Below are positions 43,125 through 46,403 of a stretch of 47,386 nucleotides of DNA, piece by piece; position 1 is the first letter of the stretch, and each line of letters opens with the position of its first letter. The DNA comes from Nanobdellota archaeon. GTDB lineage: Archaea; Nanobdellota; Nanobdellia; Pacearchaeales; GW2011-AR1. The position numbers were made by a program, and so were the translations under genes. The DNA is taken from NCBI GenBank assembly GCA_038045765.1, contig JBBSXN010000002.1:84450-131835 (forward strand). Reading direction: 5' to 3'. The notes under the pieces are model-generated. The model worked only from the letters and a program-made list of their open reading frames with translations. It was not told where the DNA came from and did no database searches.

Positions 43125-43237
43125 TGGGGGTGCCAAGATTTGAACTTGGATCATGAAGTTGTCTGTGTTTCCATCTCTTGAATATGAGACGCAATCAACC
43201 CAAACCTCATATGTTAACCAGGTTGCACCACACCCCC
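43125..43237 (-). tRNA. tRNA-Pro(UGG) with a 39-nt intron at canonical position 37/38 (intron 43160-43198)
   Basis: GGGGGTG/CACCCCC acceptor stem, CCAAG-TTCAAAT-CTTGG T-arm, TGAGG/CTTCA anticodon stem, loop TT-TGG-G|A. BHB central helix TTTG/CAGA with 3-nt bulges. CCA not encoded. Confidence 0.93.
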
Positions 43238-43263
43238 ACATTATAAGATTTAATTAGTCCTTT

Positions 43264-44070
43264 TTAATACTTACTAATTCTTTTCTCAAGTATTTTATTC
43301 AGATAATTCATCTTACCACTTCCAGAAAATCCTATTAATTCTTTATAATTATAAAGACTAATGCTTCTAACTCTAACGAAGTGTAATGGTCTAGTATTAC
43401 CTCCTCTCGCTAGAACTCTTCTGGTAATCTCAAGATTATTTTTAATAAATATATCTGCTAAATTATTCATCAACTTTTCTGAAATGCAGGCGCAAGCAGC
43501 ATTTGCAGTATTCATAAATCCATCTGTATCCATTAAACCTCTTGCAAAACCTCTTAAGAAATCATCTGAATATTCAGAAATTTCTTTTCTTAATCTAATA
43601 CTAAATGTCTTACCTTTTTCCCAAATCAGATAAGATTTTATGAATTCAATATATTCTTTTGAACTTATATTAACTATGAAAACGCTTTTATTTTCCATAA
43701 TACAAGGATTTAAATTTAATTTTATTAAAAGATTCTTTAAGTATTCAGCGTAATCTGCCTCTTTTGCATAAGTTAAGAAATATCTAACTCTGTGCTGGTT
43801 GGTTTTCTTTGGAAATTTTGGATCATAACTATTATGATAATAATTACCGTCTCCTGCAAATGCTCCAATTAACTCACCTATTTGAAAATCATTTAAATTG
43901 ACTATAAAATCTTTCTTTATTCTAGGCTTGAACTTTCTGACTTGATAATAAATTGTGGGCTTGCCCAAATTCATTAATTTAGACAAATAATTAAGACTCT
44001 TTCCTTCATCTGTTAATCTTCTTATTAATTGTAAATCATCTGATGATAATCTTTCATTCTTAATTCTCAT
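43264..44070 (-). CDS. Free-standing LAGLIDADG (DOD-type) homing endonuclease-like protein with N-terminal HTH
   Basis: Two motifs, ELIGAFAGDG and GFARGLMDTDG; N-terminal EGKSLNYLSKLMNLGKPTIYYQV HTH; no intein splicing motifs. Confidence 0.85.
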   Translation of the reverse strand: MRIKNERLSSDDLQLIRRLTDEGKSLNYLSKLMNLGKPTIYYQVRKFKPRIKKDFIVNLNDFQIGELIGAFAGDGNYYHNSYDPKFPKKTNQHRVRYFLTYAKEADYAEYLKNLLIKLNLNPCIMENKSVFIVNISSKEYIEFIKSYLIWEKGKTFSIRLRKEISEYSDDFLRGFARGLMDTDGFMNTANAACACISEKLMNNLADIFIKNNLEITRRVLARGGNTRPLHFVRVRSISLYNYKELIGFSGSGKMNYLNKILEKRISKY

Positions 44071-44141
44071 TTATTAATTTAGATAACCTGCTTTAAATTA
44101 TTTTATTTTAATTTTCAAGCGACAACACAAAAAATTGTAAA

Positions 44142-45098
44142 TCAATTTAATTTAGTAAATTCCAAACCTGCTGGCAAGGGTTGCTTTGAATATTTTGAAG
44201 TTTCCCAGTAATTGGGTGTTGTGGCGAATTTTCTTCTTGCACTGCTTTCATTAAAAGATTTGGAAATATTAGTGATGGAGAATGCAATACAATAAGCTAG
44301 GAACTGTTCGTATGAGTGGGTTCTAGTTCTTAATGCTCTTTGAAATCTTACTAGTAAAGAATCTTTTTCTTTAGGAATAGGATTCCATTTTTTCATTATT
44401 CTTGGATAGAGTTCTGATTCAACCTGAGTATCTGCAATAATATATCTTCTTCTTAATTTATTAATTTCATGCAAGCCGTAGGGTCTACAAAATGCTCTTG
44501 CTTCAGAGATGACTGACCAATCTGGATGCAGAGCGTGTGTTAGCCAATTATCTTCATGTAAAACTTTCTCAGGCATCTCCGGAATACCTTTGTCTAGTAA
44601 TTTTGCTCTGACTCTCAAATTATCTAAAATATATAACTGTCCTGTTAACCAAAGATTATGACTTCCATTATGATTTGCATAAGCTGAACCTAAAAAACGC
44701 TGAAAAAGAGGCAAATCATTAATATAAGATACTGTAGATCCACCAATCATAGCATCTTTACTTGTGTTTATGGCTTTTACTAGATTCTCAGCCGCATTTT
44801 CATGTAATACTACATCTCCATCTGTAAAAAGAACATTGTTTGTTGGTGCTTGATTGAAAAGGGTATTCCACATTCTTGCTTTTCCTGGAATTGGACTTTC
44901 TATAACTTGTATTCGGGAATCTTGCTTAGATAAGTCTCTTGCTATTCTAACTGTGTTATCTCTACATCCATTTGCTCCAATTAGTATGGAAACTAAACTA
45001 GAATTAGTTGATTGATTTTGTATAGAAATTACTGTTCTAGCTAAAGTTCTTTCTTCATCTCTGACAGGAATGCATGCTGTCCATTCAGAAGTTTGCAT
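44142..45098 (-). CDS. Glycosyltransferase family 2
   Basis: CIPVRDEE, ANGCRDNT, GKARMWN, FTDGDV, LHED. Confidence 0.85.
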   Translation of the reverse strand: MQTSEWTACIPVRDEERTLARTVISIQNQSTNSSLVSILIGANGCRDNTVRIARDLSKQDSRIQVIESPIPGKARMWNTLFNQAPTNNVLFTDGDVVLHENAAENLVKAINTSKDAMIGGSTVSYINDLPLFQRFLGSAYANHNGSHNLWLTGQLYILDNLRVRAKLLDKGIPEMPEKVLHEDNWLTHALHPDWSVISEARAFCRPYGLHEINKLRRRYIIADTQVESELYPRIMKKWNPIPKEKDSLLVRFQRALRTRTHSYEQFLAYCIAFSITNISKSFNESSARRKFATTPNYWETSKYSKQPLPAGLEFTKLN

Positions 45099-45156: not shown

Positions 45157-45903
45157 CTACTTCTTCTTTGCTGCAGGTTTCTCTTCCTTCTTTGCTGCTG
45201 CAGGTGTAGCTGCTTTTGCTCCGGCTGCTGGTGCTGCTGTTGCAGCTGCTGGTGCTCCAGGTACTGCGGCTGCTCCGGCTGCTGGTGCTGCTGTTGCAGC
45301 TGCTACCTTTGCTGCTTCTGCTGCAGCTGCTGCTTCTGCTGCTGCTTTTGCTTCTTTCTCTTGCTTGTTCTTAACGTCGTTAAAGAATGTAAGAAGAGAT
45401 TTCTTTTTATCATCTGAAATTTTGTCTTTTCCAGATAAGATTTCTTTATCATAAACGCCTTGTGCAATTTCCTTAGCTACTTCTTTTGCTTCTTTGTTTT
45501 CAACTAAAAGACCAAGAGAAACGCATGAACCTGTAACTAATTGAACTGCTGCTTTCAAATTCTTTGCAAGAAGGTTAGGCATCTTCATATTTGCAACAGC
45601 AATAATTTGTTCTATACCTAGATTTCCTACCTTAACTTTATGAGCCAGGCCTGAACCTTTTTCTGCTCCTGCTTCCTTCTTTAATAATTCTGCAACTCCT
45701 GGTGAGAATACTTTTACTGTGAATGTTTTTGACTTTGTATCAACATCAATTTCAACTGGAACGTTCATTCCTTTGAATCCGGCTGTAGCTGAATTTACAT
45801 CAGACATTATTTTTCCTAAGTTTACGCCTAGAGGTCCAATCTGCTGTGAGACTGCCGGTCCCGGTTTCATATTCCCGCCTTCAACAATTAATTTTACTTT
45901 CAT
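45157..45903 (-). CDS. rpl11: 50S ribosomal protein L11 (uL11) with long Ala-rich C-terminal extension
   Basis: VEGGNMKPGPAVSQQIGPLGVN, GMNVPVEI, VTGSCVSLG. Confidence 0.95.
   Translation of the reverse strand: MKVKLIVEGGNMKPGPAVSQQIGPLGVNLGKIMSDVNSATAGFKGMNVPVEIDVDTKSKTFTVKVFSPGVAELLKKEAGAEKGSGLAHKVKVGNLGIEQIIAVANMKMPNLLAKNLKAAVQLVTGSCVSLGLLVENKEAKEVAKEIAQGVYDKEILSGKDKISDDKKKSLLTFFNDVKNKQEKEAKAAAEAAAAAEAAKVAAATAAPAAGAAAVPGAPAAATAAPAAGAKAATPAAAKKEEKPAAKKK
45217..45304. repeat. Perfect 34-bp direct repeat within the uL11 tail
   Basis: tgctccggctgctggtgctgctgttgcagctgct at 45217-45250 and 45271-45304 (encodes AAATAAPAAGA). Confidence 0.85.
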
Positions 45904-46403
45904 AGTTCGTCTTCTCCTGAATCTCTTGAAGATTCATCTGAATTTGAGTCAGATTCACGCCTTATAACCTTTACGTTATCTATTTTTACTGTAACTGGGA
46001 TAGGAACTGAAGCTCCAAGCAATGAAACAATTATCTCTCCTTTAGCTTTATCGATTCTTGTTACCTTTGCTTTTTCTCCTTTAAATGTCTGACCAATCAT
46101 TTCAACCATGTCTCCAATCTGTATATTCATTTCCTCTACTTTAGGTTCTAACATTTTCTTTATCTCTTCATATGTAATTGTCTTTCCAATTATTCCTTTT
46201 ACATACGGTAAATTGAAAGCAGATTCTTCTGCAGATTCTCTATCAAGAGCTTCTAGAATAATATATCCACGCAATCCATGAGGTCTTACAACTGCATTAA
46301 CATTTAGATTTTTTTTCTCTGCACGCTGAGCTATCATCTCAACTGCTTTGTCTTCCTTGTTTGTTGCGACCTTAACGATGAAAATCATTTTTGTATGTTC
46401 CAC
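45900..46403 (-). CDS. spt5: Transcription elongation factor Spt5 (NusG)
   Basis: NGN domain (LRGYIILEA) plus KOW domain (GDMVEMIGQTFKGEKAKV); upstream of rpl11; GTG start with GAGGT. Confidence 0.95.
   Translation of the reverse strand: MEHTKMIFIVKVATNKEDKAVEMIAQRAEKKNLNVNAVVRPHGLRGYIILEALDRESAEESAFNLPYVKGIIGKTITYEEIKKMLEPKVEEMNIQIGDMVEMIGQTFKGEKAKVTRIDKAKGEIIVSLLGASVPIPVTVKIDNVKVIRRESDSNSDESSRDSGEDEL

What the first reader, a model, noticed from the sequence alone, without database searches (positions are those of the whole stretch)
43125..44070. Free-standing LAGLIDADG endonuclease 26 bp upstream of an intron-containing tRNA-Pro: candidate collaborative homing unit
Seen: an HTH plus two-motif LAGLIDADG ORF with both catalytic-position acidic residues (GDG, TDG), not inside an intein or intron, co-oriented with and ending 26 nt before a tRNA whose anticodon loop is interrupted by a BHB intron. 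Known: free-standing homing endonucleases can cut intron-less alleles of a neighbouring gene while the intron protects the donor (collaborative homing in phages); how archaeal tRNA introns spread is unresolved. Inference: the nuclease may target intron-less tRNA-Pro genes and co-mobilise the intron, or it may be a domesticated DNA-binding or maturase factor for tRNA expression.
Basis: partly seen in the sequence, partly recalled or inferred. Interest (0 to 1): 0.7.

Follow-up and report, generated by a model that had tools for sequence, protein, structure and literature searches.

The report
Homing endonuclease gene beside tRNA-Pro
A stand-alone DNA-cutting "homing endonuclease" gene sits directly in front of an intron-bearing proline tRNA gene, and it belongs to a large, apparently undescribed family in tiny groundwater archaea whose members almost always sit against tRNA genes.

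Summary
A 268-aa ORF (43264-44070, minus strand) carries an HTH and two LAGLIDADG motifs, with both catalytic Asp kept. It ends 26 nt before tRNA-Pro(UGG) (43125-43237), which holds a 39-nt bulge-helix-bulge intron at 37/38.

The gene is not a one-off. A profile of it hits 214 of 401 genomes of its class. In 72 of 102 free-standing copies examined, the 3' end of the ORF touches a tRNA gene, against 11 of 683 ORFs in the window's genome.

Endonuclease clades track tRNA identity. All 15 loci of the window's clade flank tRNA-Pro, on either side of it, within a conserved rpl11-tRNA-Pro neighbourhood that other genomes hold empty. The window's stop codon lies inside the tRNA's TATA-like box.

Introns are over-represented at flanked tRNAs (10/12 vs 51/138 in four genomes; tRNA-Pro(UGG) 4/8 vs 0/9). 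They are not required: 69%-identical relatives flank intron-less tRNA-Pro, one with an identical anticodon arm.

Best reading: a selfish endonuclease gene specific for the tRNA locus, with the intron more likely a linked passenger than a shield. No cleavage or expression data exist. Five literature searches found no description of this family.

The parts
43264..44070 (-). Free-standing HTH + double-motif LAGLIDADG endonuclease gene, 268 aa, stop codon included
   Evidence: ORF list. Pfam LAGLIDADG_3. AlphaFold2 model with mean pLDDT 90.4. Best Foldseek match is I-DmoI 2vs8, TM 0.80 by target length. PDB profile search: VMA intein endonuclease 7.8e-17, PI-PfuI 1.4e-13, I-DmoI 1.6e-06.
43936..44058 (-). 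N-terminal helix-turn-helix region, aa 5-45
   Evidence: Pfam HTH_38 at E 0.0043, below its cut-off. The model has three helices at aa 10-21, 26-33 and 37-47. PF13936 is precomputed for several relatives.
43846..43884 (-). LAGLIDADG motif 1, aa 63-75, ending G-D74-G
   Evidence: Alignment A1 has E66, G69, G73, D74 and G75 invariant. The Asp is kept in 72 of 72 tRNA-flanking relatives.
43519..43557 (-). LAGLIDADG motif 2, aa 172-184, ending T-D183-G
   Evidence: Alignment A1 has G178, D181 and D183 invariant. The Asp is kept in 72 of 72.
44091..44127 (-). Conserved non-coding block upstream of the ORF, with an A/T-rich TATA-like stretch 21-32 nt before the ATG. Probably the element's own promoter and left end.
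   Evidence: By eye, a near-identical block lies upstream of the ORF in the window and in L247, L249, L250, L251 and L255, while the sequence further upstream differs; it is more diverged in L253 and L256. It was not seen in the empty sites.
43260..43269 (-). TATA-like box of the tRNA-Pro promoter; it contains the ORF's stop codon (43264-43266)
   Evidence: The same purine-rich plus TTAAAAA-type motif lies at the same distance upstream of tRNA-Pro in all 8 distinct loci with an upstream endonuclease gene, and in 4 of the 7 loci whose 5' side is empty; two more carry a TTTATAAAT-type box and one is unclear. A T/A-rich hexamer starts 27-32 nt upstream of 24 of 38 ARAGORN tRNA calls in the window's genome, by my count from the listing.
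43199..43237 (-). tRNA-Pro(UGG) exon 1, pre-tRNA positions 1-39
   Evidence: Rfam; exon limits from BLAST against intron-less orthologues.
43160..43198 (-). 39-nt bulge-helix-bulge intron at tRNA position 37/38
   Evidence: The splicing endonuclease family PF01974 is present in the genome at 95 bits.
43125..43159 (-). tRNA-Pro(UGG) exon 2, pre-tRNA positions 79-113
45157..45903 (-). Ribosomal protein L11 gene. This is the conserved upstream neighbour of tRNA-Pro in related genomes and anchors the presence/absence comparison.
   Evidence: Pfam Ribosomal_L11 and Ribosomal_L11_N; synteny by tblastx.

Best explanation
The ORF is a selfish, free-standing, I-DmoI-like LAGLIDADG homing endonuclease gene with an extra N-terminal HTH. 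It belongs to a large family in Nanoarchaeota-type (DPANN) archaea whose clades are each tied to one tRNA gene. The window's clade is tied to tRNA-Pro. The element is about 0.87 kb: a conserved 5' non-coding block plus the ORF. It sits between the rpl11 region and the tRNA-Pro promoter, so tightly that its stop codon lies in the tRNA's TATA-like box. The tRNA therefore keeps its own promoter. Inferred mechanism: the enzyme cuts tRNA-Pro loci that lack the element, in or next to the tRNA gene. Repair from an occupied copy then copies the element in. The 39-nt intron starts 65 nt (26 + 39) from the ORF's end, so it would be copied along with it (trans homing, or hitch-hiking). That would explain why introns are enriched at flanked tRNAs without being needed for protection. 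Shown: the fold, the catalytic residues, the family-wide tRNA adjacency, the tRNA-specific clades, presence/absence in conserved synteny, the promoter overlap and the intron association. Inferred: cleavage, the target site, homing and co-conversion of the intron.
For: Fold and active site: (both catalytic Asp kept in 72 of 72). Abundance: 214 of 401 genomes of the class at E<=1e-10, many with several copies and some copies with internal stops. There are 4 family hits in the window's genome; 3 are within 26 nt of, or overlap, a tRNA gene. Adjacency: 72 of 102 free-standing copies have a tRNA at the ORF's 3' end (48 co-oriented, 24 convergent), against 11 of 683 ORFs in the window's genome. Inteins serve as an internal control: the 3 ORFs of 797-976 aa have no tRNA nearby. 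Specificity: tRNA identity changes 40 times on the endonuclease tree, against 50-61 in 300 label shuffles. The clades for Pro, Arg(GCG) and Gly(CCC) each hold both orientations. All 13 metagenomic relatives (49-69% identity) flank tRNA-Pro. Mobility: the rpl11-[element]-tRNA-Pro-[element]-gene A neighbourhood is conserved, with the element upstream, downstream or absent. These states are interspersed on an L11 tree. Promoter overlap. Intron association. The four tRNA-Pro introns show chained similarity: L251-L255 is reached by 0 of 500 shuffles, window-L250 by 1 of 500, L250-L251 by 6 of 500.
Against: No cleavage, expression or population data exist; no RNA run holds the locus. Endonuclease and L11 identities between the same loci correlate (Pearson 0.65) and have similar means (57% vs 59%). 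That points to mostly vertical descent under strong constraint. It would also fit a host function, with the empty sites being losses rather than never-invaded targets. Kin share labels, so the tree and Fisher tests overstate independence. Intron calls come from ARAGORN, which mislabels intron-bearing tRNAs. The unflanked background comes from only two to four genomes. Rfam missed some ARAGORN tRNAs with long inserts. How intron-less flanked tRNA genes escape cutting is unexplained.
Confidence: 0.6

Rival explanations
1. Collaborative homing in the strict sense. [quoted passage not shown] The intron breaks that site in the donor and is copied in together with the endonuclease gene.
For: Introns are enriched at flanked tRNAs (40/72 vs 19/67; 10/12 vs 51/138). 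For tRNA-Pro(UGG), 4 of 8 loci with an upstream endonuclease gene have an intron against 0 of 9 others, Fisher p 0.029. No locus with an intron but no endonuclease gene was seen among 7 HEG-free tRNA-Pro(UGG) genes. The introns look related. The same clade sits on either side of one tRNA, which fits a target inside the tRNA gene. The pathway is known in phages (passages read in PMC2790892).
Against: 32 of 72 flanked tRNAs have no intron call, although all 72 enzymes keep the catalytic Asp. Relatives 69% identical to the window's enzyme flank intron-less tRNA-Pro; in L247 the anticodon arm is identical to the window's spliced one, by my reading of the sequences. All three downstream (convergent) loci of the clade are intron-less. 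The anticodon loop reads the same in flanked and unflanked tRNA-Pro(UGG) genes, so no resistance change shows there.
Confidence: 0.2
2. Domesticated protein. The LAGLIDADG-HTH protein is kept for a host function at the tRNA locus, such as DNA binding or regulation of tRNA-Pro transcription, or locus maintenance, and no longer moves.
For: It diverges about as slowly as ribosomal protein L11 and roughly in step with it. Its ORF end overlaps the tRNA promoter. It has an extra HTH. WhiA is a precedent for a LAGLIDADG fold turned transcription factor; it appears among the Foldseek matches (8dy9).
Against: Both catalytic Asp are kept in 72 of 72. Presence is patchy: 14 of 201 genomes of the order with the single protein, and only 1 of 6 other tRNA-Pro(UGG) loci sampled across the family's genera carries it, with 5 left empty. 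Empty sites occur in close relatives. The family has several copies per genome at different tRNAs, copies with internal stops, and both orientations relative to the tRNA. Genomes without it have normal tRNA-Pro genes.
Confidence: 0.12
3. Passive neighbour. The adjacency reflects tRNA genes as general landing sites or recombination hot spots for mobile DNA, and the endonuclease has no specificity for the tRNA locus.
For: tRNA genes are classic integration sites (recalled knowledge). The flanks around some flanked tRNAs are rearranged, for example the inverted tRNA-Gly/tRNA-Ile pair between two genomes of the genus.
Against: No integrase or other mobile-element gene lies nearby: the neighbours are GT2, L11, Spt5, MBL-fold and NUDIX genes. 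Endonuclease clades track single tRNA identities. The junction is nucleotide-tight and always involves the ORF's 3' end.
Confidence: 0.05

Closest known systems
I-DmoI (LAGLIDADG endonuclease encoded in an archaeal 23S rRNA bulge-helix-bulge intron)
   Same: Monomeric two-motif LAGLIDADG fold. It is the best structural match (2vs8, TM 0.80 by target length, rmsd 3.0 A) and matches by sequence profile at 1.6e-06. It is archaeal and associated with a BHB intron.
   Different: I-DmoI is encoded inside the intron it mobilises (entry titles; the rest recalled). Here the gene is outside the host gene, the intron is only 39 nt and has no ORF, and the protein has an extra N-terminal HTH. Sequence identity is 13-14%.
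Intein endonuclease domains (Thermococcus VMA intein 7qsu/7qss; PI-PfuI 1dq3)
   Same: These are the closest solved sequences: 7.8e-17, 1e-16 and 1.4e-13 over profile positions 55-285.
   Different: They are embedded in inteins within proteins. The family here consists of stand-alone ORFs of about 210-350 aa. In the same searches the intein copies (ORFs of 797-1203 aa) are not next to tRNAs.
Collaborative homing and trans homing in phages (a free-standing endonuclease next to an ORF-less or defunct group I intron; MobE and the nrdB intron of T4)
   Same: A free-standing endonuclease gene sits beside a gene whose intron has no working endonuclease, so the intron can be co-mobilised by gene conversion (passages read in PMC2790892).
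   Different: Those cases are bacterial viruses with group I introns in protein-coding genes and HNH-type enzymes. Here the host is a cellular archaeon, the intron is a protein-spliced BHB intron in a tRNA gene, and the enzyme is a LAGLIDADG type. No cleavage data exist, and the intron is present in only part of the clade.
Phage T4 SegB (free-standing homing endonuclease in the T4 tRNA gene region)
   Same: A free-standing endonuclease gene linked to tRNA genes and favouring their inheritance. I saw only the title, in the reference list of PMC2790892; the details are recalled.
   Different: SegB is a phage-borne GIY-YIG enzyme (recalled) represented by a single locus. It is not a cellular, multi-clade family with one clade per tRNA.
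WhiA (bacterial LAGLIDADG-derived transcription factor with an HTH)
   Same: A LAGLIDADG scaffold combined with an HTH. It appears among the Foldseek matches (8dy9, 8dy7) and weakly by sequence (3hyj, E 0.051).
   Different: In WhiA the HTH is C-terminal and the catalytic residues are lost (recalled). Here the HTH is N-terminal and both Asp are kept in 72 of 72. Distribution is patchy and multi-copy.

Membership tests
LAGLIDADG homing endonucleases (monomeric, two-motif, I-DmoI type) | Two LAGLIDADG motifs in one chain | tested here: met
   Motifs at aa 63-75 and 172-184. Pfam LAGLIDADG_3 is above its cut-off.
LAGLIDADG homing endonucleases (monomeric, two-motif, I-DmoI type) | An acidic catalytic residue at the end of each motif | tested here: met
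   D74 and D183 are invariant in A1 and kept in 72 of 72 tRNA-flanking relatives.
LAGLIDADG homing endonucleases (monomeric, two-motif, I-DmoI type) | Two alpha-beta-beta-alpha-beta-beta-alpha half-domains | tested here: met
   Model with mean pLDDT 90.4. Best matches are I-DmoI and PI-PfuI, probability 1.00. This rests on a prediction, not a solved structure.
LAGLIDADG homing endonucleases (monomeric, two-motif, I-DmoI type) | Site-specific double-strand cleavage of a long target | not testable with these tools
   No biochemical data; the target site is unknown.
LAGLIDADG homing endonucleases (monomeric, two-motif, I-DmoI type) | Mobile: present or absent at the same site in related genomes | tested here: met
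   The rpl11-tRNA-Pro-gene A synteny holds the element upstream, downstream or not at all, and these states are interspersed on the L11 tree. Loss cannot be told apart from gain.
Collaborative homing unit (free-standing endonuclease plus ORF-less intron) | A free-standing endonuclease gene next to a gene with an intron that encodes no endonuclease | tested here: met
Collaborative homing unit (free-standing endonuclease plus ORF-less intron) | The endonuclease cuts intron-less alleles at the intron insertion site, and the intron protects the donor | not testable with these tools
   Indirect evidence leans against it. Relatives 69% identical flank intron-less tRNA-Pro, one with the same anticodon arm. 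32 of 72 flanked tRNAs have no intron call.
Collaborative homing unit (free-standing endonuclease plus ORF-less intron) | Intron and endonuclease gene co-occur across genomes | tested here: inconclusive
   There is a positive association, but it is incomplete, the calls are noisy and the samples are related.
Archaeal bulge-helix-bulge tRNA intron | An hBHBh' motif (two 3-nt bulges around a 4-bp helix) placing the cuts at 37/38 | tested here: met
   Hand-built structure with all pairs standard. Exon limits were confirmed independently by BLAST to intron-less orthologues. By inspection of the sequences, the same 4-bp helix can form in the three other tRNA-Pro introns.
Archaeal bulge-helix-bulge tRNA intron | The host encodes the splicing endonuclease | tested here: met
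   PF01974 at 95 bits in the window's genome. The ligase was not searched for.
Intron- or intein-encoded endonuclease | The ORF lies inside an intron or in frame inside a host protein | tested here: not met
   The ORF has its own ATG and a conserved upstream block. It lies outside the tRNA, and the window has no rRNA match.
WhiA-like domesticated LAGLIDADG proteins | Loss of the catalytic acidic residues, with conserved single-copy presence | tested here: not met
   The residues are kept. Presence is patchy and multi-copy.

The most novel reading that the evidence does not exclude
A large family of tRNA-locus-specific LAGLIDADG endonucleases in DPANN archaea drives the spread and retention of bulge-helix-bulge introns in tRNA genes. 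It would do so either by dragging linked introns along during homing or by selecting for introns that break its target sites. That would supply a missing mobility and selection mechanism for archaeal tRNA introns, and for disrupted tRNA genes more generally.
Probability: 0.3. Interest if true: 0.85.

Novelty: new variant of a known kind. Interest (0 to 1): 0.68.

Why it matters
How archaeal tRNA introns arise, spread and persist is an open question. They have no known mobility machinery of their own. The idea that disrupted tRNA genes protect against mobile DNA (recalled from the literature) has lacked a concrete attacker.

This locus provides a candidate. It leads to an abundant family of apparently active nucleases, each clade tied to one tRNA gene, with intron-bearing tRNAs over-represented beside them.

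It also shows an unusually tight arrangement between a selfish gene and its host: the endonuclease gene's stop codon sits inside the tRNA's TATA-like box.

The question becomes directly testable. The enzyme is small and predicted with high confidence, and natural empty, occupied, intron-bearing and intron-less target loci are in hand (L051, L057, L247, L250 and the window). tRNA-specific LAGLIDADG enzymes could also serve as new long-site nucleases.

Tried and rejected
- The search for related loci on genome contigs failed twice. The 12-row alignment had no stretch conserved enough, and the single protein gave 222 pattern hits but no relative. I used the genome search and the metagenome scan instead.
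- The downstream MBL-fold neighbour has no close homologue in 30 relatives at 1e-20, so synteny could not be anchored on it. rpl11 worked instead.
- No tRNA-Pro match turned up in the 7 other genomes of the genus at E<=0.001 (those assemblies are 78-89% complete). No same-genus empty site was obtained.
- Comparing the tRNA-Gly locus between the window's genome and a genome of the same genus showed an inversion and extra DNA, not a clean insertion.
- A possible endonuclease remnant between tRNA-Gln and the intron-bearing tRNA-Glu of the window's genome was looked for. None was found; a membrane-protein ORF lies there.
- I considered that these archaea lack RNase P, which would force the tRNA promoter to stay at a fixed distance. 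Rejected: RNase P RNA is present at 108 bits.
- A TATA box embedded in the ORF is not general. In the Gln/Glu/Thr clades, whose ORFs run 10-16 nt into the tRNA, I saw no consistent box near -30 in the sequences. The promoter statement is therefore limited to the tRNA-Pro clade.
- Sequencing runs: no RNA holder is listed. Laying the contigs of four groundwater runs gave fragmented pieces at 80-90% likeness and no clear occupied-versus-empty joint.
- NCBIfam has no model for the family; the only hits are weak ones to intein-bearing proteins.
- Complex prediction, the ESM Atlas and the representative-protein search were not used.
Full report
**What is there**

On the minus strand the window holds, in order:
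- Spt5/NusG (45900-46403) and ribosomal protein L11 (45157-45903), both confirmed by Pfam.
- A GT2 glycosyltransferase gene (44142-45098).
- The 268-aa ORF (43264-44070).
- A tRNA gene (43125-43237).
- An MBL-fold hydrolase gene and a NUDIX gene.

Pfam finds LAGLIDADG_3 in the 268-aa ORF above its cut-off, and a weak HTH_38 at the N-terminus.

An AlphaFold2 model built on a 12-row alignment has mean pLDDT 90.4. It shows three N-terminal helices, a linker, two alpha/beta half-domains and a C-terminal helix. Its best structural matches are I-DmoI (TM 0.80 by target length) and PI-PfuI. A sequence profile reaches intein endonuclease domains at 7.8e-17 and I-DmoI at 1.6e-06.

The tRNA scores 44.2 bits with Rfam and has 42 unaligned bases in the anticodon loop. 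An intron-less orthologue aligns to pre-tRNA positions 1-39 and 79-113 without a break, so the intron is 39 nt.

The sequence forms a textbook helix-bulge-helix-bulge-helix motif made only of standard pairs. The cuts leave anticodon UGG, G37 and A38. ARAGORN's intron mode misplaces the intron and calls the gene Val.

In this 86%-complete genome it is the only Rfam-supported tRNA-Pro. The genome encodes the splicing endonuclease and RNase P RNA.

**The gene is one of a large tRNA-flanking family**

A paralogue in the same genome (37% identity) ends exactly at tRNA-Arg(GCG), in convergent orientation. A third copy overlaps a 93-nt tRNA gene. A fourth is not near a tRNA.

With the single protein, 14 of 201 genomes of the order have a match. 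With a 12-sequence profile, 214 of 401 genomes of the class do, often with several copies, some carrying internal stops. Public names for close relatives are 'LAGLIDADG family homing endonuclease' or 'hypothetical protein', from Nanoarchaeota, Pacearchaeota and Woesearchaeota metagenome bins.

I examined 105 loci: 18, 27, and the next 60 rows fetched. Three are inteins (ORFs of 797-976 aa) and were set aside.

Of the 102 free-standing copies, 72 have a tRNA gene at the ORF's 3' end, defined as a stop-to-tRNA gap of -130 to +50 nt. 48 of these are co-oriented and 24 convergent. The remaining 30 break down as follows:
- 13 have a tRNA within 250 nt upstream.
- One lies in an SSU rRNA gene.
- One has a tRNA that only Rfam found.

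As a control, 11 of 683 ORFs of 150 aa or more in the window's genome meet the same criterion, and two of those are family members. ARAGORN made no calls on a shuffled genome. Both catalytic Asp are kept in all 72.

**Clades follow tRNA identity, not orientation**

On a tree of the 72 proteins, the tRNA amino-acid label changes 40 times, against 50-61 in 300 shuffles. Related sequences share labels, so this is not a probability.

Well-supported small clades carry one tRNA each: Pro(UGG), Arg(GCG), Gly(CCC), Gly(GCC), Gly(UCC), Thr(GGU), Gln(CUG) and Glu(CUC). The Pro, Arg and Gly(CCC) clades contain both co-oriented and convergent members.

A metagenome scan with the window protein and its 50%-identical relative returned 13 loci at 49-69% identity. 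All 13 are next to tRNA-Pro: 12 UGG and 1 GGG, with one of the UGG genes mislabelled Leu by ARAGORN because of its intron. Rfam confirms 9 of the 13 at its gathering score; it misses three intron-bearing genes and the GGG gene.

**Presence or absence in a conserved neighbourhood**

tblastx shows the order rpl11 - tRNA-Pro - gene A in genomes with and without the element. The element is:
- upstream of the tRNA, co-oriented, with a 15-37 nt gap, in the window and 7 other distinct loci;
- downstream and convergent, running into the tRNA's 3' end, in 3 loci;
- absent in 5 tRNA-Pro(UGG) loci of other genera.

On an L11 tree these states are interspersed. For example, an intron-bearing occupied locus, an intron-less occupied locus and an empty locus group together (the tree is short and only moderately supported).

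A conserved non-coding block of about 40 nt precedes the ORF in the upstream elements, while the DNA further upstream differs. This marks the element's left end.

The right end is the tRNA promoter. A purine-rich plus TTAAAAA-type box lies at the same distance from tRNA-Pro in occupied and empty loci. The ORF's TAA stop lies inside that box in 5 of the 8 upstream elements, including the window. The same kind of box starts 27-32 nt upstream of 24 of 38 tRNA calls in the window's genome. The tRNA therefore keeps its own promoter.

**The intron question**

ARAGORN calls an intron in 40 of 72 flanked tRNAs, against 19 of 67 unflanked tRNAs of two whole genomes (odds ratio 3.2, Fisher p 0.002). For introns of 20 nt or more the figures are 23 of 72 against 11 of 67.

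Within four whole genomes, three of them rebuilt from fetched pieces, 10 of 12 flanked tRNAs have an intron call against 51 of 138 unflanked ones (p 0.004). For introns of 20 nt or more it is 8 of 12 against 27 of 138.

For tRNA-Pro(UGG), 4 of 8 distinct loci with an upstream element have an intron (39, 28, 24 and 36 nt, all at 37/38). None of the 9 others does: 7 without the element and 2 with it downstream (p 0.029). The four introns show chained similarity, although part of that similarity is forced by the pairing the splice motif needs.

These tests ignore relatedness and rest on a noisy caller.

Several results count against a shielding role:
- 32 of 72 flanked tRNAs have no intron call.
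- The two relatives closest to the window's enzyme (69%) flank intron-less tRNA-Pro; one of them (L247) has an anticodon arm identical to the window's spliced one.
- The loop sequence is the same in flanked and unflanked genes.
- All downstream-side loci lack introns.

**How it most likely works**

The anatomy is that of a minimal selfish element held as close as possible to a conserved target without harming it. It sits at the edge of the tRNA's promoter or terminator.

The same clade occupies both ends of one tRNA species. This suggests that the enzyme reads something within, or common to both ends of, the tRNA gene. The 7-bp acceptor-stem sequence reads the same at both ends; this is my inference and is untested.

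A break near the tRNA, repaired from an occupied copy, would copy in the element and anything within a short distance of it. That includes an intron starting 65 nt away. This corresponds to the 'trans homing' described for T4 MobE, as distinct from 'collaborative homing', where the cut is at the intron insertion site (passages read in PMC2790892).

**A caution**

Endonuclease and L11 identities between the same loci correlate (Pearson 0.65) and have similar means (57% and 59%). Descent is therefore largely vertical and the protein is strongly constrained. This fits continued homing among close relatives, but it also leaves room for a host function.

**Literature**

Five full-text searches found no description of LAGLIDADG genes flanking archaeal tRNA genes:
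- LAGLIDADG + tRNA gene + archaea + free-standing;
- homing endonuclease + DPANN + tRNA;
- LAGLIDADG + Woesearchaeota;
- tRNA intron + homing endonuclease + archaea + bulge-helix-bulge;
- collaborative homing.

I read passages of PMC6125680, which places archaeal group I introns with LAGLIDADG ORFs in rRNA genes only. I also read passages of PMC2790892. The other papers were seen only as listings. Subscription-only papers are not covered.

**Verdict**

The finding is a new variant of a known kind. It is an abundant archaeal family of free-standing LAGLIDADG endonuclease genes, each clade tied to one tRNA locus, with a promoter-overlapping insertion and a statistical link to tRNA introns.

Noticed in passing
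G000 (window's genome): upstream of tRNA genes at C2:40943-41076, C2:44895-44980, C3:77860-77931, C5:88785-88856 and C5:166434-166523: Five tRNA genes have no T/A-rich box near -30. Instead they carry a near-palindromic motif of the AGAACCTWGGTTCT type immediately 5' of the tRNA. It may be a leader hairpin or a processing signal.
   Followed up: no
G000:C5:198672-199526 (+) and G000:C3:222104-223234 (+): Two further family members in the window's genome (E 1.5e-22 and 2.1e-11). The first overlaps, in convergent orientation, a 93-nt intron-bearing tRNA gene at C5:199468-199560 (62.6 bits). The second, a 377-aa open frame, is not near a tRNA.
   Followed up: partly
L007 (G163:C23:50467-52616), ORF 1333-2061: A LAGLIDADG ORF of the same superfamily lies inside an archaeal SSU rRNA gene (Rfam 775.6 bits). 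It is presumably an rRNA-intron endonuclease, in contrast to the tRNA-flanking copies.
   Followed up: no
window 44142-45098 (-): In the related loci where rpl11 lies just upstream (L247, L251, L253, L255, L256), rpl11 is followed directly by the element or by tRNA-Pro. In the window, a GT2 glycosyltransferase gene lies between rpl11 and the element.
   Followed up: no
G000:C4:14081-14285 and loci L008, L024, L027, L031: tRNA-Glu(CTC) genes in this group carry unusually long inserts, about 95-132 nt by ARAGORN. Rfam missed the two copies it was run over, in L008 and G000. Two of the five are directly flanked by the endonuclease gene (L027, L031).
   Followed up: no
L014, L023, L026, L029, L039, L074, L079, L083: One endonuclease clade sits upstream of tRNA-like genes. 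Five of the eight were printed and show very similar 5' ends (L074, L079 and L083 were not printed). ARAGORN gives all eight differing identities and odd inserts. Their true identity and intron positions need a BHB-aware caller.
   Followed up: no
L006 (G199:C7) versus G000:C5:339152-340913: Between two genomes of the same genus, the tRNA-Gly(CCC)/tRNA-Ile pair is inverted and about 0.7 kb of extra DNA separates the two tRNAs in G199. tRNA-Ile has an 18-nt insert only in the window's genome.
   Followed up: partly
window 45157-45400 (-): The L11 protein has a long Ala/Lys/Glu-rich low-complexity C-terminal tail. Many unrelated metagenome contigs pile up on this stretch when contigs are laid.
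   Followed up: no
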